A stretch of 64,000 bases of DNA from Candidatus Latescibacterota bacterium (GCA_965206595.1 OZ242214.1:6462675-6526674); one strand, 5' to 3'; positions 25,269-45,939 are shown, numbered from the stretch's first letter. Made by a program: numbers and translations. Notes: generated from the letters alone by a model not told the origin.

Positions 25269-25310
25269 GAGAACCTCTCCAGGAGCGTCGGGTTTGCGCC
25301 GATACCGCAC

Positions 25311-27336: not shown

Positions 27337-28050
27337 TCAACGACGAAACTGACCGGGTAAAGAGACGAGAAACAGGATGACGAGGGTCCCCGCAAAGAGG
27401 TAGTGCCAGAAATGCGTGCGTCCCGATTTGACCGTCACCTGGCCGGCAAATGACGTCGTGTCCTCGATGGCTATGGAGAAGTTCCAGGTGGCGGTGCGCC
27501 CGTCTGTCCGCGTCGCCGAAGGGGATTCCAGCAACTGACCGGGCATCTCGACTGCAATCTGGACCTTCACCGGAGGCAGCGACTGTTGGCGCGCTTCGGT
27601 GAGGGCGGCGGCGCTGGGACGTATGTTGAAAGTCTCCCTAAAGGCGTAGGAGGTCGCCGGGAGAGTGCGGTAGATATCGAAATTCACCGCGTCGCCTTCC
27701 TGGTAGGCGCCCAGCTCGATCCACTGGCCGAAGAGGCGCTGCAGCTCGCGGTCGGACATGCCGGCGACATCCTGGAATTCCTTCGTGAGGACCCGATGGA
27801 AGCGTTCGTCCTGGACATAGCTCCTCTCCGTCCACTGATCCTGGGCGGAAAACATCTGCCCATCGGTCTTCTGTGCTTTCTTCAGGAGCGGTCGATACTT
27901 CTCGTCCACGGACAGGTCGAGACTCCGCAACGTTCCGCCATCCGCGGCGATGGCCGTGTTCAAACGGATATGCACACAACCGACAGTAGTGAGAAGAGCG
28001 AGCCAGAGCGCGACAAGCAACGGGGGATTTATCAGTTCACGCCCGCTCAT
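27337..28050 (-). CDS. Hypothetical membrane-anchored protein (N- and C-terminal hydrophobic helices)
   Basis: MSGRELINPPLLVALWLALLTTVGC... and C-terminal HFWHYLFAGTLVILFLV. ATG overlaps the stop of the upstream gene (TGATGA). Confidence 0.5.
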   Translation of the reverse strand: MSGRELINPPLLVALWLALLTTVGCVHIRLNTAIAADGGTLRSLDLSVDEKYRPLLKKAQKTDGQMFSAQDQWTERSYVQDERFHRVLTKEFQDVAGMSDRELQRLFGQWIELGAYQEGDAVNFDIYRTLPATSYAFRETFNIRPSAAALTEARQQSLPPVKVQIAVEMPGQLLESPSATRTDGRTATWNFSIAIEDTTSFAGQVTVKSGRTHFWHYLFAGTLVILFLVSLPGQFRR

Positions 28051-28622
28051 CAGAGGCCGTGGCAGGTGATGCCCAGGCCCGGAGATCGACCAATCATCCG
28101 CGCGCTCAACTGCAACCGCTCCGGCGCTGTCTGCCGCGCCTGTCGAGCGCCGCTGTCGGGTGCCGTGAAGAGCAGGATGTCGATCATGTTGTACAGGTAT
28201 ATACCTGCCGACAGATAGGCGAGCTGGCGCCATCTGTGGTAGCTGTCCAGGTCGTCTTCCATATCCTTGAGCGTCTGCCAGCGCTCCTTCGCCTGTTCGA
28301 AACGTCCCCCGTGACGCAGGGCCAGATAGCGCTCTGTTTCCTGCTCGTGCCGCCCCTTGACCGTCTTGTAGTTCTCGTTGGCGTTGACCGCCACGATGAG
28401 CGTGGTCAGCTCTCCGAGGAAAATGCCGAGGCCTTTCAGGCGCGCGCCCAGGGCTACCTGTCCGAGACCGGGAAGAGCTGCGGATATCGCCATAGCCCGC
28501 TTCTTCTCAGCGAGCGGTCTCTGGGTGAAAGTGTCCTCGGAAAAAACCTGCGCGCCGACCGGATTGAATGAACCGGTCCCTGCGAGGCAGACGGCGAAGA
28601 GGCAAATCAGAAGTCGGTGCAC
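28050..28622 (-). CDS. Hypothetical secreted/periplasmic protein with signal peptide
   Basis: MHRLLICLFAVCLAGTGSFNPVGAQ signal; part of the minus-strand operon. Confidence 0.5.
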   Translation of the reverse strand: MHRLLICLFAVCLAGTGSFNPVGAQVFSEDTFTQRPLAEKKRAMAISAALPGLGQVALGARLKGLGIFLGELTTLIVAVNANENYKTVKGRHEQETERYLALRHGGRFEQAKERWQTLKDMEDDLDSYHRWRQLAYLSAGIYLYNMIDILLFTAPDSGARQARQTAPERLQLSARMIGRSPGLGITCHGL

Positions 28623-28643
28623 CTGTTTTCCCTTTCCCGGATC

Positions 28644-31600
28644 CTACAGACGGTTGGCCGTGATCCATTCCCGGTGGGCTTTGGCGAACTGATAGGCGTC
28701 GGTCGTTGCCCGCCCATCCTCATAGGCCTGGTAGACCTTGTCATACGTGGCGACTGCCTCTTTCCAGCGATTCATGCTCTCGTAGCAGACGCCCATGTTC
28801 ACCAACGCGCCTGTGTGGCTTTCCGTGCCGGGATACTGTTCGACGATCTGCTGAAAGAGCGCGATAGCCTGCTGGAATTTCTCTCGATCCTTGCCGGCCA
28901 TCGCCGCCCTGTACGGTTCGACCGCTTTCTGGTAATCGAGAAAGGCCAGGCTCTCCCTGAGCCCTGCGCTCAGGTCCGGCACCTTCTCGGCCAGTGGATT
29001 CTGCGGGTACAGCTCCGCGACCTTCTGGTAGGCCTCCAGAGCATCCCTGTAGTTCTCCTGATTGTAGTGATAGTCGCCTATGGAAAACTGAGCGTTCGGA
29101 CTGAATTCGCTGTCGGGAAAACGCGCGACCAGTTGCTGAAAGACAGCGGCTGCTTCCGAGCCGCGATCCCTTTCCAGCAACGCCCACGCTTTGTTGTAGA
29201 GGGCGTCGTCTGCCTGGTCGGACTGCGGGTATTCATCCAGGATCTGCTGGTAGTAGGAGAGGGACTCTTCGAAGCGGCCTAGATTGAAACAGCTCTCGCC
29301 GGCCCGGTACAGGACATCGGGGATCACATCCAACCCGGGGAAGCGGCGCGCCATTTCGGCGAAGAGAGAGGCGGCTCGTTCGAAGCGGGTGAGATTGAAA
29401 TGGGAGTAGGCCGCATAGTAGTAGGCATAAGGAAGATTTGAATCTTTCCCGAATTCCCGTATGAAGGCCTCGAAGAAACTGGCCGCCTTTTCCAGATCGT
29501 CCAGTTGCAGGTGGGAACTGGCGATAGCGAAGCGCATGTCGGAGGCGTACAAGCCCGACGGATAGTTATCCAGAGCCTCGGCATAAGTAGCGATCACGGA
29601 TGCGTGCATACCGCGCCGCATGAAGGTATCCCCCAGCAGGTAGTAGGCACGTTCCTTGATGAAGTAGTCTCCCTGCTCGGCACGCGTATCCTCGAAGGGC
29701 AGCCCGATGACCTGCCGGGCCAGCTGTGCGGCCTCTTCGTTCCGCTCCAACCCGTGGTAGAGTTCTGCCAGCAGGAGCACGTACTCCGATTTTTCAGCGG
29801 GGTCGGCGGCTTCCTCGGCAAGGATGCGATAGTTGTCGAGGGCCTGTTCCTCTCTGTGCAGCTCGATGCGCGCTTTTCCCAGCATGCGCTGGGCCGCCCG
29901 GCGCACTTTGTGATCTTCGGCTTCCATCAGACCCGTCAGTTGAGCCTCGGCGTCTGCATAGCGTTCGAGTTGCATATAGCAGACGCCACGGCTGTAGCGC
30001 GCGCTCTCTATCAGTCTGCGGTCTTCGAGCAGCTCGAGGGCCTCACCGAACTGGGCGGTGGCCTCCGTGTAGGCCTCGTTGCCCACCAGGGCCTTACCGT
30101 GCAGATAGTGGTTGAGCCCCCGCTCGGTGCCTTCCGCGAGTGGCAGGGCTTGCGCGAGCGCTTCCAGCGAGCGCTCGAACGCCCCCATGGCCATCAGGAG
30201 CTGAGCTGCCTCGTGGCGCGCCTTGACGAAGAGAGCGGATCCGTCGCCGATTCTTAGGAAGTTGGCGATAGCCGGCTCGCTGAGCCCGGCTTTCTTCTCG
30301 GCGATGGCCAGCTCGAAATGGGCGGTGTCCAGCTGGGGTGAATCGCCGTAGTCGCCTACGATGCGTTCGTAGATTTCGATGGCGCTGGCATACGAGGCCT
30401 GGTTGAAATGCATGCGGGCGACCTGGAAGAGGGCGCCGGGCGCGTACTCATCTTCGGGATGCTCTCGCGCCATGAAGTGGAACTTCTCCAGGGCCCGGGC
30501 GCGGCCCTCCGCGGTGTCCATCATCTGATAGGAGAGCCCGATATTGAAATGGCAGGCCAGTCCCAGCCAGCTGTTCGGGAATTCCTCCAGTACGGCTTCG
30601 TATTCATCGACGGCTCTCAGAAAGTGCTGTACTCCCTGGTGCGAACCGTCGCTTTCCTGCAGGTCGCGGCCCTGCTCATAGTAGGATCGTCCAACTTTGT
30701 AACGCGCTTCGTCGATGCCGAATCCGGCCGCCGGTGCCACGTCTCCGTAGGCCTGTATGTAAAGTCTGTATTCCTCTATAGCCTCTTCAAAGCGGCGGCT
30801 CTGGTAGTAGCGCTCGGCCAGCAGCGACTGCATGCGCGCACGGAAGGCGGGATCGGCGACCGAGTCTATCGCCTCGCGATATATGGCTAGCCCTCGCTCG
30901 GGTTGACCGGCCTGATGGTACATGTCGGCCAGGCGACGGTAGGCCTCCTCCGCCAGAGAGCGCTCCTTGGTAAACAGTCCGATGGCGTTGCGGTAGACCT
31001 GGGCCGCACTCTCGTACTCTCCGAGCCGGGCGTAGCAGGAGCCCATTCTGATCTGCGACTTCATGGCCAGCTCCAACACGGTCTCATCGACCAGGCCGGC
31101 GATCTTCTCCCGGCGCATACGCGCCAGTTCCTGGTCCGTCAAGCGGTCGATCTGAGCCAGCTCTACCAGGCGCTGGTAGTAGGGGAGAGCCTCTCGATAC
31201 TGTTCCTTGCTGTAGTGGCTCTCGCCGATCTGGAACAGGGACCGGTCGTGCTGGTACCCGGACGGAAAACGCTCCACCAGCTCTTTGAACGCCTCGACGC
31301 TCCGTTCGTACTCCTCCAGCTCGAAATAGGACCAGCCGATGTCGTAGAGGGAGGTCATCGCGTACCCGCTCTGCGGGTACCTCTCGATGAGATGGCGCGC
31401 CTCGCGTATCGTGCGCTCGTAGTCGCCGGCTTCGTACAACACCTTGATGATGCGGTTGCGGGCCAGTTCCTGAAGATCGGCATTCCCGCTCTGCTCCTCC
31501 GTCTTCTCGAAGAAACCGATGGCTTGTGTCCGGTGCTCGCGGGCGCGTTCGCGGTGGCCATCCCGTCGCTGTTCGGTGGCGGCGCGGCGGGCCAGTTCCA

Positions 31601-31889
31601 GCTCCTCCTGGGCCATCTTGAAGTAGGAATTTCCGCTCTGGTAGAGTGCCACGTCCTGGACCGGTGCCGACACTTCTCCTACCGCAAACGAGAGCGAGTC
31701 CGTCTCCAGAAAACGGCTTTCCACCGCGCTGATCCGGCCGTACTTCTCCACCGCCTGGTCGTAGGCGCCCGAGGCGTAGAACTTCTGTGCCTGCTCGAAC
31801 CACAACTCCACGTCACTCGCTGTGGGAACGGTGCGCGTGGTGGCGATCAACAATGACAGGCCGATGAGAATACCCCAGCCCAGGCTCAC
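28644..31889 (-). CDS. Tetratricopeptide-repeat (TPR) protein, 1081 aa, signal peptide
   Basis: Dozens of 34-aa repeats with the W-LG-Y / A---Y-----P TPR pattern; N-terminal MSLGWGILIGLSLLIATT signal. Confidence 0.8.
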   Translation of the reverse strand: MSLGWGILIGLSLLIATTRTVPTASDVELWFEQAQKFYASGAYDQAVEKYGRISAVESRFLETDSLSFAVGEVSAPVQDVALYQSGNSYFKMAQEELELARRAATEQRRDGHRERAREHRTQAIGFFEKTEEQSGNADLQELARNRIIKVLYEAGDYERTIREARHLIERYPQSGYAMTSLYDIGWSYFELEEYERSVEAFKELVERFPSGYQHDRSLFQIGESHYSKEQYREALPYYQRLVELAQIDRLTDQELARMRREKIAGLVDETVLELAMKSQIRMGSCYARLGEYESAAQVYRNAIGLFTKERSLAEEAYRRLADMYHQAGQPERGLAIYREAIDSVADPAFRARMQSLLAERYYQSRRFEEAIEEYRLYIQAYGDVAPAAGFGIDEARYKVGRSYYEQGRDLQESDGSHQGVQHFLRAVDEYEAVLEEFPNSWLGLACHFNIGLSYQMMDTAEGRARALEKFHFMAREHPEDEYAPGALFQVARMHFNQASYASAIEIYERIVGDYGDSPQLDTAHFELAIAEKKAGLSEPAIANFLRIGDGSALFVKARHEAAQLLMAMGAFERSLEALAQALPLAEGTERGLNHYLHGKALVGNEAYTEATAQFGEALELLEDRRLIESARYSRGVCYMQLERYADAEAQLTGLMEAEDHKVRRAAQRMLGKARIELHREEQALDNYRILAEEAADPAEKSEYVLLLAELYHGLERNEEAAQLARQVIGLPFEDTRAEQGDYFIKERAYYLLGDTFMRRGMHASVIATYAEALDNYPSGLYASDMRFAIASSHLQLDDLEKAASFFEAFIREFGKDSNLPYAYYYAAYSHFNLTRFERAASLFAEMARRFPGLDVIPDVLYRAGESCFNLGRFEESLSYYQQILDEYPQSDQADDALYNKAWALLERDRGSEAAAVFQQLVARFPDSEFSPNAQFSIGDYHYNQENYRDALEAYQKVAELYPQNPLAEKVPDLSAGLRESLAFLDYQKAVEPYRAAMAGKDREKFQQAIALFQQIVEQYPGTESHTGALVNMGVCYESMNRWKEAVATYDKVYQAYEDGRATTDAYQFAKAHREWITANRL

Positions 31890-31917
31890 GGTAGCTTACC
31901 CCCTTCAGTGTGCTGCA

Positions 31918-34809
31918 TCAAAACCCCAGTATGAGGCTCATGAACATCGATGTGGTCCTGCTGTTGCGCTGCTGCTGGCGCGCGTCGAGAAACTCGATCT
32001 TGCGGTAGGCCAGTCCTGTATTGACGGTCATGTCGTAGCCGAAGTACTCGGAGAGGTTGGTGACGAACAAGGCCCAGTCCCGGCTCTCGAAGCTGCTGCT
32101 GTCGTCCGTGAGGTCCTTGAACTGATAGGCGAGGCCGGGCAACGGCAGGCCCTGCATGCCGGCCTTGAGTGCGGTTCTCGAGGTCATGCGGTACGCGGCC
32201 TTGAAGATCGGCATGATCTCGCGCTCGTGAATCAGCGGAACGCCCAGGCTGCGGCGCTCCCGGCGTAGATAGAGCAGTTTGAACTGCGGCGTCAGCGTCC
32301 ACTTGCCACGACGCCAGGAGTAGCTGGTCTTGTGCACGCCGGCCAACAGACCCAGACGATCGCCCGGTTGAAAAACGCCGTCGTCGAAGAGTGTCTCCCG
32401 CTGGTCGTTGATTTCCACTTTCACCTGGTTGACCAGCTGGAGATGGCGGAATGCTGTCACGCGACTGGCCACGTAGCTGCGGTTGACCAAGCTGTTGCGG
32501 TAGTTGAGCTCGTCGGCGATCCGCTCCGTGCTGAACTGACTTTCGTATCTGACTCCGCCGAAATTGTAGGCGCCGCTGGGCACCTCCGAGACGCGCACGG
32601 TCTCGTTCGGAATGTCATCGTGGACGCGCTTGATCTCGTGCTCGAAGCGGATCTTACCCAGACCTGGTTCGCGCAGTGCGTAGATGAGTCGCAGGTAGTC
32701 GACGCGGCTCGCGCGCCCGCCAGCGATCTGTTGCGTGCGCAGAAGTCCGGGGGCCAGGCGCAGACCCGGCAGGGGCTCCACCCATGTGCCGAGATGGAAT
32801 CCTTCGAGATCGAGGTCATAGGGATATTCCGGATCGATATCGTCTTCGCGCTCGTCCGGCACGTCATTGTTGTCCAGATCAACGCCGTAGACGTACTCGT
32901 CGGACTCCACGTCGAACATCAGGAAAGGCTCGACGTAGTCCGGGAGGTTGTTGAAGTTGCGGTTGGTATCCGGAATGCCGTCCCGGTCCTCGTCCTTGCC
33001 CGGAAACACCCCGTCGGTGTCCTCGGTGACAACGGCGTCGTCGGTGATCTGGCCGGTCCAGATGTCTGGAAAGCGATCGTGATCGTCGTTGTCCTGGACG
33101 AGCGGCCAGAGGCCTGTGTTATTGATGAAGCCGCGGCGGGTGTACTGGTGGTTCTCGTTATGGGGCAGCGAGGTCATGAGGTAGGTGGTGAAGTCGGGTT
33201 GCATGGAGAACAGCTCGCCCCCCAGTCCCCAACGCTCGGAATCCTGAGTCGCGACCAGGTACCAGGCCCGTCCGTGGCGCTCGTGCCGGCGGCCATCCCG
33301 TTCCTCGTTCGGGTAGCGGTTGAACTCTCTGCTGAGTGCGTATTCCCCGGCGATCTGAAATCCACCGAACTCGGCGTGCATGTCGATGCTGTAGACAGAT
33401 AGACCAGTCGGCCATCCGTAGTCGAAGCGAACCCACTGCACGTTGGAGAAATTCTGCACATTCCCGGGGGCCCGCTCGATGGTGCGAAGGAGCTCCGCCC
33501 GGTAGAGGTTTTCGTAGTTGTCGCTCCGACCCTTCTCCTGGACCTCGGAGATCGAAATCACGTAATCGTTCCCCACCAGAAAGCCCAATTCCACCTCATC
33601 CACTTTCTCCTCCAGGCCTTGCAGGTCGAAGTAGTAGATCAGGAAGTCCTCGCCGTCCGCCCTGTGCCCCTTGCCGGGCAGCAGTTCGACGTTGGTAGTC
33701 AATTGCACCACATCGGCCTGGCGGCTCACGTCCGTGCCGTTGTTGTGGTCTTTCAGGTATAGATAATCGGCGAATAGCGGGAGCTGCTGTGGCTGCTCGA
33801 GCAGCTTGAAAATGTCGGCTTGTCCTTGAACGCTTCGGCTGATAGGGATGGCATAGCCATTACGGGTGAAGCGGCCGGTCAGGTTGTTGGTGCGGCCCAC
33901 CGCCGTGTTCCTCGTGTGGTGGAGTACCACATCGGGGCGGATGTCGTCCCGGCGTTCGCCGTTGACCCAGACGGCGATGTCGAAGACCTGCGGCCCCCCT
34001 GTGCCATCCTCCGGCGAGTCGTCGGCGATCTGCACCGCCAGCCACAGAGGCGTGCCGCGCGTGGCAGGGAACGATCCCTTCATGGTTCGCTCCCCATCTG
34101 CGTTGTGCTCCGAGTGGACATTGACGTAGCTGGCGCCCAGATCGAGGATGCCGATACTGCGCTCGGAATGGGCTCCGAAGAGCTGCACCGGATTCTGGTC
34201 GCGAAGCAGGCCGTTGAGGACGAATGCCGCTGCGTGGTCGCGTGGGTAGAGCGGAGTGGTGAGGCGCGATGCCACGATGGAGATCCGCGTTTGGTCGGTC
34301 ATCCAGTCGCCGCGGAACCCGTTCAGTCCTGCCCAGTAGAGCGTGAGCGGCGTGAACATCGTGCGGATCTCGCTGCCGAACATCGCCCTGGCCGACCAGC
34401 CATCGTAGGCGTCGCCGGCTATCATCACATTGTTGAAAACGCGCTCGAAGCGATTCTGGGACTTGAAGAGTTCGCTTTCGAGTCCCTCCGGGGAGTGCGA
34501 CTCCCGCCACGAGGCGACGTCGTAGCCGCTGAGCAGGCGATCGCCCAGGGGGCCGTAGAAGGTGCGGCGCGAAGTGGTATAGGGGAACTCGAAGTCCTCG
34601 TAGTTGGCGTAGGGCGACATGGCGTGGCTCGTGAAACCGGGAAGCCGCCGCCCTAAAAACGGGTGGGCGGGATACACCTGCCGCAGCGCTACGTCTGCAG
34701 TGCGCGCGTCGTCCTCTCCGTCGCCGGGGCCGTCCTGGGCGCAGAGCGGGATCGCACACAGCAGCGCGACTGCTGACGCCAAAGCTGTGGTTTGATATCC
34801 CGCTGACAT
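31918..34809 (-). CDS. Large outer-membrane-like protein, paralog C (963 aa), thrombospondin-type-3-like Asp-rich Ca-binding motifs, C-terminal ...LILGF
   Basis: Signal peptide ALLCAIPLCAQ. FTPLTLYWAGLNGFRGDW. FPGKDEDRDGIPDTNRNFNNLPDYVEPFLMFDVESDEY...DLDNNDVPDEREDDIDPEYPYD. Alternating hydrophobic C-terminal strands ending in F. Confidence 0.7.
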   Translation of the reverse strand: MSAGYQTTALASAVALLCAIPLCAQDGPGDGEDDARTADVALRQVYPAHPFLGRRLPGFTSHAMSPYANYEDFEFPYTTSRRTFYGPLGDRLLSGYDVASWRESHSPEGLESELFKSQNRFERVFNNVMIAGDAYDGWSARAMFGSEIRTMFTPLTLYWAGLNGFRGDWMTDQTRISIVASRLTTPLYPRDHAAAFVLNGLLRDQNPVQLFGAHSERSIGILDLGASYVNVHSEHNADGERTMKGSFPATRGTPLWLAVQIADDSPEDGTGGPQVFDIAVWVNGERRDDIRPDVVLHHTRNTAVGRTNNLTGRFTRNGYAIPISRSVQGQADIFKLLEQPQQLPLFADYLYLKDHNNGTDVSRQADVVQLTTNVELLPGKGHRADGEDFLIYYFDLQGLEEKVDEVELGFLVGNDYVISISEVQEKGRSDNYENLYRAELLRTIERAPGNVQNFSNVQWVRFDYGWPTGLSVYSIDMHAEFGGFQIAGEYALSREFNRYPNEERDGRRHERHGRAWYLVATQDSERWGLGGELFSMQPDFTTYLMTSLPHNENHQYTRRGFINNTGLWPLVQDNDDHDRFPDIWTGQITDDAVVTEDTDGVFPGKDEDRDGIPDTNRNFNNLPDYVEPFLMFDVESDEYVYGVDLDNNDVPDEREDDIDPEYPYDLDLEGFHLGTWVEPLPGLRLAPGLLRTQQIAGGRASRVDYLRLIYALREPGLGKIRFEHEIKRVHDDIPNETVRVSEVPSGAYNFGGVRYESQFSTERIADELNYRNSLVNRSYVASRVTAFRHLQLVNQVKVEINDQRETLFDDGVFQPGDRLGLLAGVHKTSYSWRRGKWTLTPQFKLLYLRRERRSLGVPLIHEREIMPIFKAAYRMTSRTALKAGMQGLPLPGLAYQFKDLTDDSSSFESRDWALFVTNLSEYFGYDMTVNTGLAYRKIEFLDARQQQRNSRTTSMFMSLILGF

Positions 34810-34827
34810 GGATCGCCTCTGCGGCCG

Positions 34828-37482: not shown

Positions 37483-40157
37483 TCGACCCGCATGTGGATG
37501 AAAACTTCGCTGGAATGTCGCGAGCCGACCGAGCTGTTGTGCGCAAAGTCGAAGCGACTGGCTTTGTAGCCCATCAGGAAACTGGTGTCGTAGCCGATGT
37601 AGTTGTCCCGCGTCTGCACGGTAAAGATGAAGTGTTCGGCGTCGAAGTCGTCGGCAGGTGCAGGCTCGCTGCGAAAGCGATGTTTGAACAGGAGGGGAAA
37701 TCCCTGGACCCCGGCGCGCACCACCGTGCGCGGGGACGCCTGATAGTCGAGGCGCAGGATCGGGAAGAAGGTGTAGTCCTGAATCAACGCTTCTGCCCCA
37801 TCCGAGGCGGTCTCTCGCGCCGTCGTGAACTTGACCATCGGCATGAGCGAGAAGGAACGCCATTTGCGCAGGTAATCGGCCTTGGCGACAGCCCTCCACC
37901 CACGCAGGGTGCGTTCTTCCCGGATCGTCTGAGCTTGCTCGACCTCCTCGAGCTGGTTGTTTTGCTCGTAGCGCAGAATGGTTTCCAAGCGCAGAGTGGA
38001 AACCGGGCGCAATCGACATCGAGCGAACAGGGTATTGACCAGGCTGTTGCGCATCTCCAGCGGATCGGGGCGCACCTGGATCGAGAAATTCTCCAGCACT
38101 CGTGGATCGATCCTGAATTCGTAGGTACTGGAAGCGATGTCGTCGCGGACCCTCCTGCCCAGGTAGTTCAGCTCCAGGTGGCCGGCGGAAGACAGCTTGC
38201 GGTGGAGGTGCAAGCGCAGATAAGAAGTCCGGTTTTCGCCACCTCCAGCAGTCTGTTCGATATCGTACCAGCCAGCCGTTACGTCCAACGCAGGTGAAGG
38301 ACGGTAGCCGGCGAAGACGTGGGGTCCCCCCGAGTCGAGCTCGTAGGGGTAGTCGGGCCGGTTGTCGTTTTCGCGGACGTCGATGATACCATTGTTGTTG
38401 TAGTCGTCTCCGAATACGAAGTCTTCCGGCTCGACGTGGTACATGAGGAAGGGTTCCAGATAGTCGGGCAATCCATTGTCGTTGACATTGGTGTCCGGCG
38501 TGCCGTCCCCGTCCTCGTCCAGTCCCGGAAAGACCCCGAAACCGATCGCCTCGTTGGGAGACGGCACCAGGTTGCGATCCGCTTCCGGCGTGGGGCGGCC
38601 TACCGATTGCAGGGTGTATCGGGGGTCGAGGGGTTCCCAGTGCTCCCAGCTGTCCGCCCATTGGTCGCGGTCGTCGTTGTCCTCCACCATGTGGAAGACA
38701 TCGAACTGGTTGATATCTTGCCGCCAGTAAGTGAAATCCGTCGAAAAGGTGGCCGGCACCTCGAACAGTTCCAGCCCCAGCCGCCATGCTCCCACCGGTC
38801 GCTCCAGCGTCAGGTAGTAGGCGTCGCGCTGGCCCTCGAACCGGCGCCCTTCGAAAACCGGGTACTGGGAGAAGTCGAAGTTGCGCACGTACTCCCCCCT
38901 GAGAGCAAAATCATACAGTGCCAGATCGACATCGGCTCCGTACGTAGCGATCCCCGTGGAGGCGGAGTAGGAGAATCTCTTCCTCTGCGGGGTGGCATCC
39001 CCAGCCCCGGGGTTGCCGGGCGCCCGCAGCACGTTGTGCCAATCGTTCCAGGTGATGCCGACAACCCCCCGCCGGGGCAGCTCGGCTGCGACGTCGATGC
39101 TGTAGTCATGGGAGACGAGCGCCTCGAACTCGACCGCAGAGGCGCCATGGGGAACATCGAAGCGGTAGATGAGAACATCCGTGCCACTTGCCTCCAGGAA
39201 ATCCTCTGCGCTCGGCGCAACGACCGGAGCGTCGTCGATGAGATTGCGGAAAGAGGTCCAGGGAAGCACAGCGCTCAACCAGGACTGGCGCCGACGCAGG
39301 TGGGAAACATCCTCCACGGTCAGCTCGCGCTGGCGCTCGATGTCCTGCACCTGGCGGATTTCGGGTGTCAGATCAGCACGAGCTGTTCCATCTACCAGCA
39401 TCACCATGTCGTAGACTCTGGCGCCGGACCCATCGTCGGGTGAGTCGTCGCAGACGATGACGAACAGGGTCTCCGGGGGCTGCAGCTCGTTGGGGAGGTT
39501 GCCCTTCTGCGAACTCCTCTTGCTCCCGACCAGGCTGTCGGTGTAGTGGAGATTGACGTAGGAGGCTCCGAAGGTGAGCACATCGCCGAGGGTGCCTTCC
39601 CAGCGGCCACCGTAGATATAGTTGGCGAACTCCCGGCTGCGCAGGCCGCCGGAGAGGATGGGGTCCGACACGCGCGAGGCCACGATCGCGAAGCGGTTAC
39701 GGCGCGTCGCAGCATCCCAGCGCATGCCGTTGAGACGGGCGACGTTGAGGGTGAGAGGGGTGAAGGTGGACTCCACCGCCCTGCCGATCGTCAGCTTGCT
39801 GGACCAACTCCGGTAACTGTCGCTCGATATCACCAGATTCTGGAACAGGTTGGTCAGCGCGAAGTCCTTGAAGAGGAGGCTGCCATCGAAGGGGTCGATA
39901 CTGCGAAACTCCTCGAGGCGGAACACCTCGACCCCGTCGAGCATGTACATGCCGAAAGAATCGAAGGTCCGCTGCTCTTGATCGATGTCGTAGCCCCGGT
40001 AGCTGATGCTGGCGAGGTTCTCGTGCTCCTCCTGCTGCCAGCGTGGATAGGACTGGCGGTTGAGGAACTGGGCCTGGGTGTCTCGGCTGTCCAGCAGGAG
40101 ACTGAATAGCACTACCCCGCCGCCTACCGCGAGGCTTCTCACCCTGTACCTCTCCAT
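37479..40157 (-). CDS. Large outer-membrane-like protein, paralog A (892 aa)
   Basis: Signal peptide. FTPLTLNVARLNGMRWD. VFPGLDEDGDGTPDTNVNDNGLPDYLEPFLMYHVEPEDFVFGDDYNNNGIIDVRENDNRPDYPYE. Confidence 0.7.
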   Translation of the reverse strand: MERYRVRSLAVGGGVVLFSLLLDSRDTQAQFLNRQSYPRWQQEEHENLASISYRGYDIDQEQRTFDSFGMYMLDGVEVFRLEEFRSIDPFDGSLLFKDFALTNLFQNLVISSDSYRSWSSKLTIGRAVESTFTPLTLNVARLNGMRWDAATRRNRFAIVASRVSDPILSGGLRSREFANYIYGGRWEGTLGDVLTFGASYVNLHYTDSLVGSKRSSQKGNLPNELQPPETLFVIVCDDSPDDGSGARVYDMVMLVDGTARADLTPEIRQVQDIERQRELTVEDVSHLRRRQSWLSAVLPWTSFRNLIDDAPVVAPSAEDFLEASGTDVLIYRFDVPHGASAVEFEALVSHDYSIDVAAELPRRGVVGITWNDWHNVLRAPGNPGAGDATPQRKRFSYSASTGIATYGADVDLALYDFALRGEYVRNFDFSQYPVFEGRRFEGQRDAYYLTLERPVGAWRLGLELFEVPATFSTDFTYWRQDINQFDVFHMVEDNDDRDQWADSWEHWEPLDPRYTLQSVGRPTPEADRNLVPSPNEAIGFGVFPGLDEDGDGTPDTNVNDNGLPDYLEPFLMYHVEPEDFVFGDDYNNNGIIDVRENDNRPDYPYELDSGGPHVFAGYRPSPALDVTAGWYDIEQTAGGGENRTSYLRLHLHRKLSSAGHLELNYLGRRVRDDIASSTYEFRIDPRVLENFSIQVRPDPLEMRNSLVNTLFARCRLRPVSTLRLETILRYEQNNQLEEVEQAQTIREERTLRGWRAVAKADYLRKWRSFSLMPMVKFTTARETASDGAEALIQDYTFFPILRLDYQASPRTVVRAGVQGFPLLFKHRFRSEPAPADDFDAEHFIFTVQTRDNYIGYDTSFLMGYKASRFDFAHNSSVGSRHSSEVFIHMRVE

Positions 40158-40175
40158 GCGGGAATTCCGTCCCGT

Positions 40176-42347
40176 CTAGTAGACGACCGCTACCGTGCCG
40201 ATGCCGACCTCGGAATGGTCGCCGAGGTCGATCCCGACTCGATACAGGTAGTTGCCCGGGGGGACGAGATTGCCGTTCCGATCCACGCCGTCCCAGAATC
40301 CAGGCGTCTGCCCGGCCAGCGTCGCGTCCCGGGGATGGAGATAGGTGCCGGCGCTCAGGCGGACCGTTGGAAGGGTGCGCACCAGTCGACCGCTGAGATC
40401 GAAGAGGCGAATCTCGACGTCCTGAGGCTCGGCGAGTTTACTGATGACCAGTTCGATGACCGTGAAGTCATTGCGGCCATCGGCATTGGGAGTGATGACA
40501 CGAGGCGTGGCCTCGGCGCGCACGAGCAACTCGTCCAGCACTGCGGAGACAGAAACCGCCCACGATTTGAGCACCTCCCCCGTGGTTTCATCTACCAGGC
40601 GGTCTTCAGCAGCTTCCAGCGGATTGTCGGTGCCGGGAGCGAAGAGATGGGCCCGATAGTCGAACCGGGGCAAAAACTGGGCTGTAGTGAAGGGAATCCG
40701 TAGCGAGGTAACCCCGTCATCTGCCGCGATGGGAGGAGTGAAAGTCACGACGAACTGCTGGCGCAGGACATCGAAACCGCCGTCCACCGGCAAGGCTTCC
40801 CCATCCGGCCCTGTAACGCTGCCGGCCGCCTCGGCCCGGGAAGGGACGTCGATGGCCAGCTTCTCTACGCCGGCTTCGTCGCCCGAGAAATCCAGATTCA
40901 GCTCGTAGACGAACGTTGTATCGCGGCCCATGGGAACTGAGCGGGGACTGATCGAGGCCGATGCCTCGTCGACGGCGAGCGGCCCTTCGTCGAAGCGCAG
41001 CTGCAGGGAGCGCAGTGCCGGGGTACGGCTGTTGTCGCTGGTGGCGAGGTTCGCCCGGTACTGCAGCGAGGTCCGGGGTTCGGGAACCTCGGCAAAGACG
41101 CCGCTCTCCGAATAGGGGCGGCTCCAGTCGCTCCACTCCATGTCCGCTCCGGCGCTGCGAAACTGCAGGCTCAACTGTGTCCGTTCCGGCACCTCCGCCT
41201 CCCAGGTGACCAGGCCGAAGTTCTTCGGGGCAGCCGGCGCGTCGAACGCGAGAGGAGGCGACAGATAGCTGGCGCTCTCGGCGAAACCGGTGCCGAAGAC
41301 TTCCAACTCCGCGACGCTCGGTGACAGGCCGCGGGCTACCTCGGTCACGACGATTCTCAGGTGCCGCGCCGCCACGGCCGGGAAGCCGATCCCGGTCTCG
41401 CGAAACTCGGTGATCCCGAACAGGGCGCCCACTTCGGTCCAACGGGAGCGGTCGTCGCTGATCTGGACCGAGTATCCTCTCAGCGAGTTGCCTTCGAGTT
41501 CCTCGGCGTCGTCGCCTTCGGTGACCACGCGCACTCGATTGATGCTTCGGCGACGGCCCAGATCGACGCGGGCGAAGTCGTTGAGAGCCCCAGTCGTCAG
41601 GTTCCACGCCGTCTGGAGATCGCCATCGGTGATCTCGGCCGGGGCGGCGAACATGCCTGCGGCCAGATTCTGGCCGTCGATGAGGCGCAACTGCAAGGCC
41701 CCTTCCCCCTGCCGGCTCGTCTCGACGCCACCGGGAAAGCCAGCGATCGGCTCCACGTCCAGGCTGTGAAAGCCGGAGATCCGCGAACGGTCGAACGTCG
41801 CGTTCTGGACTCGCTGCCAGGGCGGTTCGTTGCCGATGTCGCCGTCGGTCAGCCAGGCGTCGTCTACCGGCTCCAGGCCGCTCCAGTACCAGGGCCCTGT
41901 CACGGTGCTGACGAACTGCTCATTCCCGGCGACGATTTCGACCATCAGGCCGGCACCCGAACCCGTGCCGTCGTTGTCGACCACCAGCGCCAGGTGGTTG
42001 TCGCCCTCCTCGAAGGTGACGGAATGCTCCTTCAGGGCGGTCCAGTCCGCACCGGCGCCGGCCCTCTGGCCGTTGAGGAAAAGCACGTACCGGTCCACGG
42101 CCGTGAGGCGGATTTCTCCCTGTCCCGAATCGGTGTTGAAATCGTAGCGGTACCAGGTCGTTGTCGGCCAGCGGTCGATCGACAGCATTTCGCCGTCTGC
42201 CGCCGTACTGCCGGCGACGATGAATGCCGCCCAGAGGGAGGCGATCAGAGCCGTGCGGAGTCCGCATTCCGCTACCACGACAACCTCCTCGCGGCGGTCC
42301 CCGGAACAGAGGGGTGCCCGGGAAATCCGCTTGTCAGAGACATTCAT
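40176..42347 (-). CDS. Secreted F5/8-type-C (discoidin) domain protein with T9SS type-B-like (CHU_C / FlgD-Ig-like) C-terminal domain; start codon uncertain
   Basis: ITDGDLQTAWN...RVDLGRRRSINRVRVV discoidin-like. C-terminal ITPNADGRNDFTVIEL...IRLFDLSGRLVRTL...GFWDGVDRNGNLVPPGNYLYRV. Confidence 0.6.
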   Translation of the reverse strand: MNVSDKRISRAPLCSGDRREEVVVVAECGLRTALIASLWAAFIVAGSTAADGEMLSIDRWPTTTWYRYDFNTDSGQGEIRLTAVDRYVLFLNGQRAGAGADWTALKEHSVTFEEGDNHLALVVDNDGTGSGAGLMVEIVAGNEQFVSTVTGPWYWSGLEPVDDAWLTDGDIGNEPPWQRVQNATFDRSRISGFHSLDVEPIAGFPGGVETSRQGEGALQLRLIDGQNLAAGMFAAPAEITDGDLQTAWNLTTGALNDFARVDLGRRRSINRVRVVTEGDDAEELEGNSLRGYSVQISDDRSRWTEVGALFGITEFRETGIGFPAVAARHLRIVVTEVARGLSPSVAELEVFGTGFAESASYLSPPLAFDAPAAPKNFGLVTWEAEVPERTQLSLQFRSAGADMEWSDWSRPYSESGVFAEVPEPRTSLQYRANLATSDNSRTPALRSLQLRFDEGPLAVDEASASISPRSVPMGRDTTFVYELNLDFSGDEAGVEKLAIDVPSRAEAAGSVTGPDGEALPVDGGFDVLRQQFVVTFTPPIAADDGVTSLRIPFTTAQFLPRFDYRAHLFAPGTDNPLEAAEDRLVDETTGEVLKSWAVSVSAVLDELLVRAEATPRVITPNADGRNDFTVIELVISKLAEPQDVEIRLFDLSGRLVRTLPTVRLSAGTYLHPRDATLAGQTPGFWDGVDRNGNLVPPGNYLYRVGIDLGDHSEVGIGTVAVVY

Positions 42348-44485: not shown

Positions 44486-44518
44486 GCAAGCAGCAGACAG
44501 TCCTCACCACGGGCTCCT

Positions 44519-44568
44519 GGTCTGGGTGCGCGTCTTCCGCTGCGAGGCGCGCACCCAGACCCTTTTTT
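44519..44568 (+). terminator. Rho-independent terminator: 14-bp GC-rich stem (GGTCTGGGTGCGCG...CGCGCACCCAGACC) followed by CTTTTTT
   Basis: Perfect inverted repeat plus T6, 34 bp after the stop at 44485. Confidence 0.75.
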
Positions 44569-44659: not shown

Positions 44660-45925
44660 ATGACTTCACGTCCCCGGCGCGAAGAGCGTTTTTCCACTCC
44701 GTCAGATCTGCTCGATCTGCGCCTGCTCCGACGGAGAACACGCGAGTTTCTCTACTGGGGCTTGGGGATCGCGCTGGGTTGCCACCTGGGATTGGCTCTC
44801 TATCTGGTCCTCAGTCACAGGGAGGAGCCCGTAGCCAAACCGCAGACCGTGGAGTTCGTCGTGCGCCAGCCGCGTATGACCAAACCCTTCGAGTTGAAAA
44901 AGAAGCGGGTACCCCACAGGGTGATGACGCGCAAGGTCGCCACCGCCAAGCCCGAACAGGTGCGCACCCTGAGCAAGCGGATCGACCGACCGGATGTCTT
45001 CGGCACCGTGGCCACGGTCTCCTATACCGTGCAGGACAGTGCCGCCGTGGGTGACGAGGTGGTGATGCCGGCCCACAGTGCGGCGCAGGTCGCCAGCTTC
45101 AAGGAACCGGGGAAACGGATCAGCATGCAGGAGGAGTTCATCGATGTCCGCGCTCTGGATACGGGCAAATACAAGGCGCTCGTCATCCAGGATCCGCAGA
45201 ACAGGCAGGATATCAAAGGATTCGTCCACCTGGCCCTGGCCTGGGGGACCGACCTCGAACCGAAGGCGCCCAGAGCGGTACCGAAGCTGGTGGAAGCGAT
45301 GAACCGGTACACCAGCATCGAGGCGCGCGTGGACAACCATCTCTTCATCGACTCCAGCGAACTGCTCGAGACCCCGTTCGTGTACATCACCGCCGACGAC
45401 GCCTTCGAGATAACGGAGAAGGAGATCGAGAGCCTGCGCCGGTACCTGGAAAGCGGAGGGTTCATCCTGGCCGACAATGGAGTGGCAGAGCTGGAGTACG
45501 GACCGGGCGAGGCCTCTCTGCGCAAGATGTTCAAACAGGTGCTGGGCAACAAGGCGCGTTTCCAGAACCTTCCTCGGGATCATCCCATATATCACAGTTT
45601 CTTCGACTTCGACGGACCACCTCCGGGAGAGGAAGTCAGCCAGAAGGTGCGAGTGTCAGGAGAAAGAAGGGGTGTGCTGACGGGCGCAACCCGCGGCATC
45701 CAGCACGCTGTATCCAAACCAGCGCACTTCCTCGAGGGGATTTATCTGGGCGACCGGTTGGTGGCCGTGTACTCCGACAAAGCCTACGGCAAGTACTGGG
45801 AGCGGGAGTACGAAAACGAGCCGCAGTTGAAGATAGGGGTCAATATGGTCGTCTTCGCCTTGACCCAGCAGGGCTCCATTGCGCAGCAGCACATCGACTT
45901 CTACGAGCATTCCGCGAGCCGGTGA
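44660..45925 (+). CDS. DUF4159-domain membrane-anchored protein
   Basis: N-terminal TM helix. KGFVHLALAWGTD...PFVYITADDAFEITEKEIESLRRYLESGGFILADNG...HPIYHSFFDFDGPP fits the DUF4159 pattern. Confidence 0.6.
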   Translation: MTSRPRREERFSTPSDLLDLRLLRRRTREFLYWGLGIALGCHLGLALYLVLSHREEPVAKPQTVEFVVRQPRMTKPFELKKKRVPHRVMTRKVATAKPEQVRTLSKRIDRPDVFGTVATVSYTVQDSAAVGDEVVMPAHSAAQVASFKEPGKRISMQEEFIDVRALDTGKYKALVIQDPQNRQDIKGFVHLALAWGTDLEPKAPRAVPKLVEAMNRYTSIEARVDNHLFIDSSELLETPFVYITADDAFEITEKEIESLRRYLESGGFILADNGVAELEYGPGEASLRKMFKQVLGNKARFQNLPRDHPIYHSFFDFDGPPPGEEVSQKVRVSGERRGVLTGATRGIQHAVSKPAHFLEGIYLGDRLVAVYSDKAYGKYWEREYENEPQLKIGVNMVVFALTQQGSIAQQHIDFYEHSASR

Positions 45926-45939
45926 CGAGACAGGGGGAC

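What the first reader, a model, noticed from the sequence alone, without database searches (positions are those of the whole stretch)
27337..42347. 15-kb minus-strand operon: discoidin/T9SS-type-B protein, three paralogous ~900-aa outer-membrane-like proteins with TSP3-like Asp-rich motifs, a giant TPR protein and two small envelope proteins
Seven co-directional genes with overlapping or short junctions (ATGA, TGATGA). The three big paralogs share signal peptides, the motif FTPLTL-A-LNG-RWD, a long Asp-rich stretch (FPGLDEDxDGxPDxNxNDNxLPDYxEPF…DxNNNGxxDxRENDxxPDYPYD) of the thrombospondin-type-3/OmpA-like Ca-binding kind, and C-terminal amphipathic beta-strands (one ends in the classical OMP terminal Phe). 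No characterised family fits. The composition (lectin-like secreted protein + triplicated Ca-binding OM proteins + TPR scaffold) suggests a novel outer-membrane complex. Possible functions are exopolysaccharide export or capture, or a surface lattice.
Basis: partly seen in the sequence, partly recalled or inferred. Interest (0 to 1): 0.75.

Follow-up and report, generated by a model that had tools for sequence, protein, structure and literature searches.

The report
Giant outer-membrane barrels in conserved envelope cluster
Three paralogous genes encode very large outer-membrane barrel proteins of an undescribed family, and they sit in a gene cluster conserved across several Bacteroidota-related (FCB) phyla that probably builds a machine spanning the whole cell envelope.

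Summary
Seven co-directional minus-strand genes lie at 27337-42347, with ATGA and TGATGA junctions.

- **The paralogs.** The three ~900-aa proteins are 31-34% identical. They have signal peptides and the quoted motifs, and no Pfam, NCBIfam or PDB sequence match.
- **Family size.** About 1,000 clusters at 50% identity, all from metagenome-assembled genomes and all unnamed.
- **Synteny.** The order is conserved in Latescibacterota, KSB1, Ignavibacteria, Marinimicrobia and others: lectin-like protein with a T9SS type-B-like C-terminal domain, then an optional PorP/PorV-like gene, 1-3 barrels, a ~1,100-aa TPR protein, a DUF4159 protein with a TonB/TolA-like N-terminus, a lipoprotein with a TonB-C-like domain, and DUF5683. 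TolQ/ExbB-TolR/ExbD genes are embedded in 27 of 78 loci.
- **True extent.** In this window the last partners are divergently transcribed at 42572-47244, so the unit is about 20 kb.

Best reading: a Tol/TonB-type, probably proton-motive-force-coupled trans-envelope complex whose barrels hold a T9SS-delivered surface lectin. I found no support for polysaccharide export or true TSP3 repeats. It is a new family and a new system variant. Its function is untested.

The parts
40176..42347 (-). g1 'DISC': secreted lectin-like protein. Contains an N-terminal beta-sandwich, an F5/8 type C (discoidin/CBM32-like) domain at 235-336, further beta domains, and a C-terminal T9SS type-B-like CTD at about 610-723.
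   Evidence: Pfam F5_F8_type_C_2 E = 3e-12; CHU_C scores 24.4 bits in the full-length protein. The isolated CTD scores 30.6 bits for CHU_C (cut-off 27); 17 of 20 orthologs hit CHU_C and 20 of 20 hit FlgD_ig. Weak PDB hits to CBM32 glucanase modules and lectins. It, or a PorP-like gene that follows it, directly precedes the first barrel gene in most loci.
37479..40157 (-). parA: outer-membrane beta-barrel of the new family (892 aa).
   Evidence: 31-34% identical to parB and parC. No Pfam or NCBIfam hit. DxDxDG-type loops at 547 and 585. The A-B-C gene order is conserved in 18 related loci.
34828..37482 (-). parB: outer-membrane beta-barrel of the new family (884 aa). This is the copy that was modelled.
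31918..34809 (-). parC: outer-membrane beta-barrel of the new family (963 aa), ending in ...LILGF.
   Evidence: Alignment. Only a sub-threshold SlpA_C hit, E = 0.009. parC-like copies also occur as singletons elsewhere in Latescibacterota genomes.
28644..31889 (-). g5: 1081-aa periplasmic TPR scaffold with seven YbgF/CpoB- and BamD-like TPR modules.
   Evidence: NCBIfam tol_pal_ybgF 228 bits in 7 stretches and OM_YfiO 191 bits. Pfam TPR families. An ortholog follows the barrel genes in most loci of all phyla.
28050..28622 (-). g6: small DUF5683 membrane protein.
   Evidence: Pfam DUF5683 E = 3e-10. Recurs in the cluster in Latescibacterota, Ignavibacteria and Bacteroidota-labelled MAGs.
27337..28050 (-). 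g7: 237-aa putative lipoprotein (..LLTTVGC) with a C-terminal hydrophobic helix. Found only in the closest relatives.
   Evidence: Sequence. Weak LppM hit, E = 0.0027. Present only in L001 and L004. Membership of the system is uncertain.
42572..44485 (+). u1: 637-aa secreted protein with a T9SS type-A CTD, transcribed divergently from g1.
   Evidence: TIGR04183 Por_Secre_tail 35.2 bits (cut-off 23) and FlgD_ig E = 1e-17. Full-length u1-like genes (about 600-660 aa aligned) lie directly upstream of DISC in many Latescibacterota loci. Many u1 labels elsewhere are matches of about 95-130 aa to the shared C-terminal domain only.
44660..45925 (+). u2: inner-membrane-anchored protein with a TonB/TolA-like N-terminus (a transmembrane (TM) helix containing a His, then a Lys/Pro-rich linker) and a periplasmic DUF4159 domain.
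   Evidence: Pfam DUF4159 E = 8.5e-35. PDB 4i66, E = 2.4e-11. The TM His is kept in most lineages and the motif KP..V.F..R.PR..KP.E..K is conserved. Adjacent to TolQ/ExbB-TolR/ExbD genes in many loci. The TonB-like reading of the N-terminus is my inference.
45922..47244 (+). u3: lipoprotein (..AVDGC) with a conserved Ig-like beta-sandwich domain (about 40-270) and a TonB-C-like domain (about 300-380).

Best explanation
The locus (about 27.3-47.2 kb) encodes a cell-envelope module conserved in several phyla of the FCB (Fibrobacterota-Chlorobiota-Bacteroidota) superphylum. parA, parB and parC are Sec-exported, very large outer-membrane beta-barrels of about 24-26 strands. They belong to an undescribed family.

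Each barrel carries two large insertions on the same face, probably the outer one. The first is a beta-sandwich domain of about 180 aa. The second is an acidic segment of about 125 aa with one or two DxDxDG-type loops of the kind that binds Ca2+.

The upstream gene encodes a lectin-like protein with discoidin/CBM32-like modules and a C-terminal domain of the T9SS type-B kind. I propose that T9SS exports it and that the barrels then hold it at the cell surface. In this lineage the contact would be direct. In other phyla it would involve a PorP/PorV-like shuttle encoded between the two genes.

On the periplasmic side the barrels would be coupled to three partners:
- the 1081-aa multi-YbgF/BamD-like TPR scaffold;
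- lipoprotein u3, which has a TonB-C-like domain;
- inner-membrane protein u2, which has a TonB/TolA-like TM helix and linker plus a DUF4159 domain.

These in turn would connect to a TolQ/ExbB-TolR/ExbD stator. That stator is encoded inside the cluster in 27 of 78 related loci but lies outside this window.

The whole would therefore work like a Tol/TonB-type, proton-motive-force (PMF)-coupled trans-envelope complex that operates a surface lectin, most plausibly for glycan capture or adhesion. Its architecture is analogous to the Myxococcus Agl-Glt 'core complex'.

**Shown:** the gene set, the paralogy, the barrel fold, the domain assignments and the synteny.

**Inferred:** every physical contact, the energisation, the orientation of the insertions, and the substrate.
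For: **Barrel**
- The AF2 model and its strand list.

**New family**
- No Pfam, NCBIfam or PDB sequence hit.
- 1,043 clusters at 50% identity.
- Every homolog is unnamed or 'hypothetical'.

**Genetic linkage**
- DISC, (PorP-like), barrels, TPR, DUF4159, u3 and DUF5683 recur in Latescibacterota, KSB1, Zhuqueibacterota, Ignavibacteria, Kryptoniota, Marinimicrobia and Bacteroidota-labelled MAGs.
- Of 141 barrel genes, 52 follow another barrel, 39 follow DISC directly and 23 follow a PorP-like gene. In the loci listed that PorP-like gene is itself preceded by DISC.
- A distant family member lies directly downstream of two other CHU_C proteins.

**Type-B-like CTD**
-.
- Published work shows that type-B CTD cargo is anchored and shuttled by a cognate OM protein encoded next to it (PMC9143113, PMC12618676).

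**Energy-coupling components**
- The u3 TonB-C-like domain.
- The u2 N-terminal TM His and basic Pro-rich linker.
- TolQ/ExbB plus two TolR/ExbD genes in the cluster in 27 of 78 loci.

**Hetero-complex or division of labour**
- Three orthologous barrel groups keep a conserved A-B-C order in 18 loci.

**Precedent**
- The Agl-Glt core complex combines a TolQR-like motor, a TonB-like protein and TPR proteins, and is of unknown function outside the gliders (PMC3169522).
Against: - No TolQ/ExbB, ExbD or PorP-like gene lies in this 64-kb window, so energisation here rests on relatives.
- The TM His of u2 is missing in several 3-barrel-type Latescibacterota relatives.
- No TonB box or plug could be identified in the barrels.
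- I had no coordinates, so the strand count and the side of the insertions come from the DSSP string only.
- The CTD scores are marginal: TIGR04131 gives 19.6 bits against a cut-off of 35.
- T9SS core genes were not seen, because they lie outside the window.
- parC-like singletons elsewhere have unrelated neighbours, so barrels of this family can function without the rest of the cluster.
- No member comes from a cultured or studied organism.
Confidence: 0.45

Rival explanations
1. Nutrient (glycan) import system. The barrels are TonB-dependent-transporter analogues, DISC is the surface glycan-binding protein, and u2, u3 and ExbBD supply energy, much like a Sus/PUL system built from different parts.
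For: - CBM32/lectin-like modules in DISC.
- TonB-C-like domain and ExbBD linkage.
- Several copies per genome, for example at least 6 loci on OZ244619.1.
- Sulfatase and esterase-like neighbours here and in L080.
- A Reg_prop/Y_Y_Y hybrid sensor next to a singleton barrel in L072.
Against: - No Plug or TonB_dep_Rec match.
- The estimate of about 24-26 strands exceeds the 22 of TBDTs.
- No SusD-like partner.
- A 1,100-aa TPR scaffold and a T9SS-type anchor are not features of known importers.
- The carbohydrate-active neighbours are not conserved across phyla.
Confidence: 0.18
2. Structural role. The barrels and the TPR protein form a Tol-Pal- or SlpA/OmpM-like device that tethers or stabilises the outer membrane (envelope integrity, division).
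For: - Recurrent sub-threshold Pfam SlpA_C hits: 7 of 38 members, and 11 of 14 in the KSB1 subfamily, best E = 1.2e-9.
- YbgF/CpoB-like modules.
- TolQ scores higher than ExbB for the linked motor.
Against: - No SLH, OmpA_C or other peptidoglycan-binding domain, and no TolB or Pal, in the cluster.
- SlpA_C similarity covers only profile positions 232-306 of 656 and stays below the cut-off.
- Multiple divergent copies per genome and a lectin with a secretion CTD are not expected of a housekeeping tether.
Confidence: 0.14
3. Passive anchor only. The barrels are lineage-specific replacements or partners of PorP/SprF that hold the type-B cargo at the surface. The neighbouring TPR, DUF4159 and ExbBD genes belong to a separate system that merely travels with them.
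For: - Tight DISC-to-barrel adjacency.
- The PorP-like gene is absent exactly in the 3-barrel loci.
- Published type-B CTD/PorP pairing (PMC9143113, PMC12618676).
Against: - The barrels are not homologous to PorP/SprF (hhalign probability 0.5%).
- In Ignavibacteria both a PorP-like gene and a barrel are present.
- TPR, DUF4159 and u3 stay linked to the barrels across phyla despite rearrangements.
Confidence: 0.13
4. Exopolysaccharide export or capture: a TPR protein plus an OM barrel, as in BcsC, PgaA, AlgK-AlgE or PelB.
For: - A giant periplasmic TPR protein is encoded next to OM barrels.
- The L056 TPR ortholog weakly hits PgaA: 21.9 bits against a cut-off of 367.
Against: - No synthase, glycosyltransferase, Wza, Wzc or flippase was identified in the scanned cluster genes or among the recurrent cluster components.
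- Known exporters have 16-18 strands.
- TonB-like and T9SS elements are unexplained by this model.
Confidence: 0.06

Closest known systems
Deinococcus radiodurans SlpA C-terminal barrel (Pfam SlpA_C, PDB 7zgx) and OmpM-type porins
   Different: - No SLH or coiled-coil tether.
- The similarity covers about 75 of 656 profile positions and stays below the Pfam cut-off.
- No PDB sequence hit.
- Extra beta-sandwich and acidic DxDxDG insertions.
- Different gene context.
MtrB (PDB 6r2q_B) and LptD: 26-strand barrels that enclose a partner protein
   Different: - No cytochrome: no CXXCH motif in any cluster protein.
- No LptD jellyroll or LptE.
- No sequence relationship.
T9SS type-B cargo with a PorP/SprF-like shuttle or anchor (SprB-SprF; PG1035-PorP-PorE)
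   Same: A cargo gene with a CHU_C-type CTD lies immediately upstream of an OM barrel gene. In other phyla a PorP/PorV-family gene lies between them. A TPR-containing periplasmic partner recalls PorE (PMC9143113).
   Different: - The ~900-aa barrels are unrelated to PorP/SprF and about three times larger.
- No PorP-like gene in this window.
- No OmpA_C domain.
- Extra TonB-like and DUF4159 components.
Myxococcus Agl-Glt / Nfs 'core complex' (AglRQS plus GltD, E, G, C)
   Same: Same parts list by type: a TolQ/TolR-like motor, an inner-membrane TonB-like transducer, very large TPR proteins, OM barrels and a surface adhesin. u3 carries the AgmX/PglI C-terminal domain above its cut-off. The core complex is also of unknown function outside the gliders (PMC3169522).
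   Different: - No equivalog-level match: GltG scores 32 bits against a cut-off of 650.
- The Glt OM proteins are, to my knowledge, much smaller than these ~900-aa barrels; this was not tested here.
- The adhesin here is delivered by T9SS.
- The paper states that the Glt machinery is absent from Bacteroidetes.
Tol-Pal and TonB-ExbBD systems
   Same: TolQ/ExbB and TolR/ExbD family genes in related clusters. YbgF-like TPR modules. A TonB-C-like fold. A TolA/TonB-like N-terminal anchor in u2.
   Different: - No TolB or Pal, and no TonB-dependent receptor.
- All scores are below equivalog cut-offs.
- The TonB-like N-terminus and the TonB-C-like domain sit on two different proteins. In u2, DUF4159 replaces the C-terminal domain.

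Membership tests
Thrombospondin type-3 repeat (Pfam TSP_3, PF02412) | Match to the TSP_3 repeat profile | tested here: not met
   No TSP_3 hit in the three paralogs at E <= 0.01, nor in any of 38 family members at E <= 1.
DxDxDG-type calcium-binding loop (motif class, not a family) | D-x-[DN]-x-[DN]-G-x-x-[DE] loop | tested here: met
   Regex hits: parA 547 and 585; parB 540 and 578; parC 606. These columns are invariant or nearly so across 38 members. Ca2+ binding itself was not tested.
T9SS type-B CTD cargo (Pfam CHU_C / TIGR04131), for g1 | C-terminal domain matching the type-B CTD profile above its cut-off | tested here: inconclusive
   CHU_C scores 24.4 bits in the full-length protein (below 27) and 30.6 bits for the isolated domain (above 27). 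17 of 20 orthologs hit CHU_C. TIGR04131 scores only 19.6 bits against a cut-off of 35. All orthologs also hit FlgD_ig, which type-A CTDs resemble.
T9SS type-B CTD cargo, for g1 | Cognate PorP/SprF-like gene adjacent to the cargo gene | tested here: not met
   No PorP-like gene in the window. One is present between DISC and the barrel in Ignavibacteria, KSB1, Marinimicrobia, Bacteroidota-labelled MAGs and some Latescibacterota loci.
T9SS type-B CTD cargo, for g1 | T9SS core genes (SprA/Sov, PorK/L/M/N, PorU/V) in the genome | not testable with these tools
   Only 64 kb of a contig of about 7 Mb is available. Indirect support: u1 has a type-A CTD above its cut-off (TIGR04183 35.2 bits against 23).
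PorP/SprF or PorV/PorQ family, for the three barrels | Sequence or profile similarity to PorP_SprF / PorV_fam | tested here: not met
   No Pfam or NCBIfam hit. hhalign of the family profile against the Ignavibacteria PorP-like protein gives probability 0.5%.
SlpA_C / OmpM-type tethering barrels | Match to SlpA_C above the gathering score, over most of the barrel | tested here: not met
SlpA_C / OmpM-type tethering barrels | N-terminal SLH (or other peptidoglycan/SCWP-binding) domain | tested here: not met
   No SLH or OmpA_C hit in any paralog.
TonB-dependent transporter | Plug domain plus a 22-strand TonB_dep_Rec barrel | tested here: not met
Synthase-dependent EPS export (BcsC, PgaA, AlgK-AlgE, PelB) or Wza-Wzc | Linked polysaccharide synthase, glycosyltransferase, Wza or Wzc genes | tested here: not met
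   None was found among the cluster genes scanned in the window and in the Ignavibacteria operon, or among the components that recur across the loci. Unmatched ORFs in those loci were not examined.
Tol-Pal system | TolQ, TolR, TolA, TolB, Pal and YbgF/CpoB equivalogs | tested here: not met
   The TolQ- and TolR-like genes of L056 are below cut-off (112 bits against 221; 60 against 127). YbgF model 228 bits, but as 7 repeats within a 1081-aa protein. No TolB or Pal among the cluster genes scanned.
Myxococcus Agl-Glt/Nfs machinery | Equivalog-level GltG/GltD/GltE and AglRQS | tested here: not met
   Only the AgmX/PglI C-terminal domain passes (61 bits against 40). GltG scores 32 bits against 650. 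The TPR protein gives no Glt hit. The published distribution excludes Bacteroidetes (PMC3169522).
TonB family, for u3 and u2 | N-terminal TM anchor, Pro-rich linker and TonB C-terminal domain in one protein | tested here: not met

The most novel reading that the evidence does not exclude
The cluster encodes a previously unrecognised class of PMF-driven trans-envelope machine found in several FCB phyla. It would stand beside TonB, Tol-Pal and Agl-Glt. In it a Tol/Exb-type stator acts through a split TonB-like transducer (u2 with DUF4159, plus lipoprotein u3 with a TonB-C-like domain) and a giant TPR scaffold. The target is a hetero-oligomer of barrels of about 26 strands that moves or gates a T9SS-delivered surface lectin.
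Probability: 0.3. Interest if true: 0.85.

Novelty: new variant of a known kind. Interest (0 to 1): 0.62.

Why it matters
- **Scarce knowledge.** Latescibacterota, KSB1, Marinimicrobia, Ignavibacteria and their relatives are abundant in sediments, soils and oceans, yet almost nothing is known about their cell envelopes.
- **An unannotated family.** This outer-membrane barrel family has about 1,000 clusters at 50% identity and no Pfam, NCBIfam or PDB representative. It sits in an 8-10 gene cluster conserved across phyla.
- **A concrete hypothesis.** The gene set suggests how these bacteria couple inner-membrane energy and type IX secretion to a surface lectin.
- **If confirmed.** It would add a new architecture to the small set of energised trans-envelope systems. 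It would also show that type-B T9SS cargo can use anchors other than PorP/SprF.
- **Practical gain.** The family and its partners (DUF4159, DUF5683, the u3 N-terminal domain) could be given joint annotation.

Tried and rejected
1. **TSP3 repeats.** Rejected; no TSP_3 hit.
2. **PorP/SprF homology of the barrels.** Rejected.
3. **Porin-cytochrome conduit like MtrAB.** Rejected; no CXXCH motif in any cluster protein.
4. **PDB sequence relatives of the barrel family.** None with two different profiles, even at E <= 10.
5. **afdb50 fold search.** The library was not installed, so annotated AlphaFold-DB relatives could not be checked.
6. **ExbB, ExbD or PorP-like genes in the window.** None found.
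7. **Promoter and terminator scan of 24-43 kb.** No more sites than in shuffled sequence, so it is uninformative about the operon's ends.
8. **Literature.** Searches for DUF4159, DUF5683, and Latescibacteria with T9SS found nothing relevant.
9. **Context of singleton parC-like barrels.** The neighbours were a sigma-54 regulator, a Reg_prop/Y_Y_Y hybrid kinase, DUF5695, UvrA-like and others, with no consistent partner.
10. **A cultured host.** The third homolog search, seeded with the barrel from the MAG labelled Ignavibacterium album, returned only MAG or metagenome proteins named 'hypothetical'.
11. **g8 (25311-27308, polytopic membrane protein) and g9 (GFO/IDH/MocA) as cluster members.** They co-occur only in the closest relatives, so I left them out.
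12. **Strand count and sidedness.** These could only be estimated from the DSSP string because model coordinates are not exposed.

Full report
**1. The observation**

The window is GC-rich (59-74%). The ORF list, my start-codon check and the gene calls on an identical public contig agree on seven co-directional minus-strand genes:

| Gene | Coordinates | Length |
|---|---|---|
| g1 | 40176-42347 | 723 aa |
| parA | 37479-40157 | 892 aa |
| parB | 34828-37482 | 884 aa |
| parC | 31918-34809 | 963 aa |
| g5 (TPR) | 28644-31889 | 1081 aa |
| g6 | 28050-28622 | 190 aa |
| g7 | 27337-28050 | 237 aa |

- The junctions are as described: ATGA at parA|parB, TGATGA at g6|g7, and gaps of 18-28 nt elsewhere.
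- The three paralogs are 31-34% identical along their whole length. They share signal-peptide-like N-termini, the FTPLTL..A.LNG.R.D motif and the long acidic stretch. parC ends in Phe.

**2. What the three paralogs are**

*No sequence match.*
- None of the three hits any Pfam or NCBIfam model at E <= 0.01, apart from a sub-threshold SlpA_C match for parC.
- Family profiles find nothing in the PDB by sequence.

*The model.*
- An AlphaFold2 model of parB, built on 38 homologs, has pLDDT 79 and pTM 0.77. It consists almost entirely of long antiparallel strands.
- I count 25 strands long enough to span a membrane. One more is required by topology in the poorly modelled N-terminal 100 residues, which gives about 24-26 strands.
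- A beta-rich insert of about 180 aa (204-386) and an acidic segment of about 125 aa (476-601) interrupt the barrel.
- Counting back from the C-terminal strand, and treating the 5-residue strand at 810-814 as part of its neighbour, both insertions fall in extracellular loops and the 3-4-residue hairpins are periplasmic turns.

*Fold comparison.*
- No specific family stands out.

*The acidic segment.*
- It contains one or two D-x-[DN]-x-[DN]-G-x-x-D loops per paralog. These lie in invariant or nearly invariant columns of the family.
- The Pfam TSP_3 model is not matched in any of 38 members, even at E <= 1.
- 'Thrombospondin-type-3' is therefore a resemblance, not membership.

*Possible remote relatives.*
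- Sub-threshold SlpA_C hits recur: 7 of 38 members, and 11 of 14 in a KSB1 subfamily, best E = 1.2e-9.
- They cover only about 75 of 656 profile positions and score 31 bits against a cut-off of 35.
- Remote homology to SlpA-type barrels is possible but not established.

**3. Size and distribution of the family**

- A full HMMER scan of 1.84 billion representative proteins finds 1,043 clusters at 50% identity with E <= 1e-3, and 716 with E <= 1e-10.
- All homologs seen are unnamed or 'hypothetical' and come from metagenomes or MAGs.
- The window itself is identical to contigs of a Latescibacterota-like MAG. The nearest catalogued genome is a Latescibacterota MAG with 85% identity for parB.
- A scan of one genome per GTDB species found more than 525 coding relatives. 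They occur in:
  - Latescibacterota;
  - MAGs labelled Gemmatimonadota;
  - KSB1;
  - Zhuqueibacterota;
  - Ignavibacteria;
  - Kryptoniota;
  - Neomarinimicrobiota;
  - Bacteroidota-labelled MAGs.
- Several Latescibacterota genomes carry many copies. OZ244619.1 has at least six loci.

**4. Gene neighbourhood**

I blasted all ORFs of 78 fetched loci against the window's proteins and against an Ignavibacteriaceae operon.

*The recurrent set, in order:*
1. DISC (g1-like).
2. In many lineages, a gene of about 310 aa of the PorP/SprF-PorV/PorQ family (Pfam PorP_SprF 28 bits against 22.3; NCBIfam PorV_fam 90.3 against 90).
3. One to three barrels.
4. A TPR protein of about 1,100 aa.
5. A DUF4159 protein (u2-like).
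6. A u3-like lipoprotein.
7. DUF5683 (g6-like).

Full-length u1-like genes with a T9SS type-A CTD lie directly upstream of DISC in many Latescibacterota loci. Many u1 labels elsewhere reflect only the shared C-terminal domain.

*The motor.*
- TolQ/ExbB plus two TolR/ExbD genes are embedded in or abut the cluster in 27 of 78 loci.
- They score best against TolQ and TolR, but below every equivalog cut-off.

*This window.*
- u1 (42572-44485), u2 (44660-45925) and u3 (45922-47244) are transcribed divergently from g1.
- The unit is therefore about 20 kb, not 15 kb.
- No ExbB, ExbD or PorP-like gene lies anywhere in the 64 kb.

*What precedes each barrel gene.*
- Of 141 barrel genes, 52 follow another barrel, 39 follow DISC directly and 23 follow a PorP-like gene. 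In the loci listed that PorP-like gene is itself preceded by DISC.
- A distant family member (27% identity) lies directly behind two other CHU_C proteins.

*The triplication.*
- The three paralogs are distinct orthologous groups with a conserved order: A-B-C in 18 loci and A-B in 10 more.
- The triplication is therefore old and maintained. That fits a hetero-oligomer or a division of labour.

**5. The partners**

*DISC (g1).*
- It has an F5/8 type C domain and weak similarity to CBM32 modules and lectins.
- Scanned alone, its last 140 residues pass the CHU_C cut-off (30.6 bits against 27). 17 of 20 orthologs hit CHU_C.
- The segment carries the TPNGDG.ND ... WDG.D..G..VPPG.Y signature, although TIGR04131 stays below its cut-off.
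- Published work shows that type-B CTD cargo depends on, and is anchored by, a cognate OM protein encoded next to it (PMC9143113, PMC12618676).

*u2.*
- It has a short cytoplasmic tail, a TM helix with a His that most lineages keep, and a conserved basic Pro-rich linker. These are followed by DUF4159.
- DUF4159 has a structural-genomics representative, PDB 4i66.
- This is the TonB/TolA type of anchor. That reading is mine and is not a database result.

*u3.*
- It is a lipoprotein.
- Its C-terminal domain is TonB-C-like:
  - NCBIfam AgmX/PglI C-terminal domain, 61 bits against a cut-off of 40;
  - PDB profile E = 2e-4;
- In Ignavibacteria the same N-terminal domain is fused to DUF4159 instead.

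*TPR protein.*
- It contains seven YbgF/CpoB- and BamD-like modules.

**6. Most likely mechanism**

The parts list spans the envelope. It has four layers:
- a surface protein delivered by T9SS;
- giant OM barrels;
- a periplasmic TPR scaffold and a TonB-C-like lipoprotein;
- an inner-membrane TonB/TolA-like anchor which, in many relatives, is accompanied by its TolQR/ExbBD-type stator.

I therefore read it as a Tol/TonB-type, PMF-coupled trans-envelope complex. Its barrels hold and perhaps operate a surface lectin, most plausibly for glycan capture or adhesion.

Its architecture parallels the Myxococcus Agl-Glt 'core complex'. That complex combines a TolQR-like motor, a TonB-like protein and TPR proteins, and its function outside the gliders is also unknown (PMC3169522). 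The present system is not a member: no equivalog-level match exists.

All contacts, the energisation and the substrate are inferred. I put this explanation at about 0.45.

**7. Rivals**

| Rival | For | Against | Confidence |
|---|---|---|---|
| Importer analogous to TonB-dependent transport / PULs | Lectin modules, many copies per genome, sulfatase neighbours | No plug or TBDT signature | 0.18 |
| Passive T9SS anchor only | Tight DISC-to-barrel adjacency | TPR, DUF4159 and u3 stay linked across phyla | 0.13 |

**8. Novelty and verdict**

- The barrel family is new to the curated libraries and to the PDB. I found no description of the gene cluster in the searchable literature.
- The components belong to known types: OM barrel, TPR scaffold, TonB-like elements and T9SS cargo. 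I therefore rate it a new variant of a known kind, with a 0.3 chance that it is a distinct class of energised envelope machine.
- Its interpretation was right on 'novel OM complex' and on the T9SS link. It was wrong or unsupported on TSP3 repeats and on polysaccharide export. It missed the divergent partner genes and the Tol/TonB-like signature.

Noticed in passing
window 47697-52706 (+): A 1669-aa ORF directly downstream of u3 combines an M28 peptidase-like region (about 268-342) with an FtsX-like permease domain (about 1391-1501). I did not check whether it travels with the cluster.
   Followed up: no
window 52472-56227 (+); L080 19930-22964: A DUF6785/DUF6784 polytopic membrane protein and a sulfatase lie next to each other here. 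A sulfatase and a DUF6785 gene also lie about 1.5 kb apart, separated by a DHDPS gene and a small ORF, beside the barrel cluster of a different MAG (L080/L081). This may be a recurring association with sulfated-glycan use.
   Followed up: partly
window 25311-27308 (-): g8 is a 665-aa protein with many hydrophobic segments and no Pfam hit. It lies 28 nt downstream of g7 on the same strand and is followed without a gap by a GFO/IDH/MocA oxidoreductase (24258-25310). Both co-occur with the cluster only in the closest relatives.
   Followed up: partly
window 10258-12939 (-); L072 14864-18736: An 893-aa protein with two-component regulator propeller repeats (Reg_prop) lies in the window. A Reg_prop/Y_Y_Y hybrid sensor kinase and a sigma-54 response regulator flank a singleton parC-like barrel in L072.
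   Followed up: no
L082 3676-13495: A distant barrel homolog (P0040, 919 aa) follows two large CHU_C proteins (859 and 1215 aa) and is followed by a 243-aa gene, with no TPR or DUF4159 gene directly adjacent; the nearest TPR-containing gene is a 1067-aa MFS/spermine-synthase/TPR fusion about 4.8 kb downstream. This is a minimal 'cargo + barrel' arrangement.
   Followed up: partly
L056 17574-20175: In Ignavibacteriaceae the embedded motor genes (ExbB-ExbD-ExbD) are followed by a PstS-family periplasmic binding-protein-like gene rather than by a TonB gene.
   Followed up: no
window 56267-62937: Three large ORFs have no Pfam match: 56267-57562 (+, 431 aa), 57734-59482 (+, 582 aa) and 59464-62937 (-, 1157 aa).
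   Followed up: no
window 1-24000: Unrelated housekeeping and accessory genes:
- UreF and UreG (1384-3058).
- A fused tetrapyrrole methylase/HemD (3745-5874).
- Fe-ADH (17536-18714).
- A LarA-like protein (18735-20069).
- An AAA-ATPase_like/PDDEXK_9 protein (21253-22839).

GC content swings from 0.74 at 4-6 kb to 0.59-0.61 at 6-10 kb and 12-16 kb.
   Followed up: no
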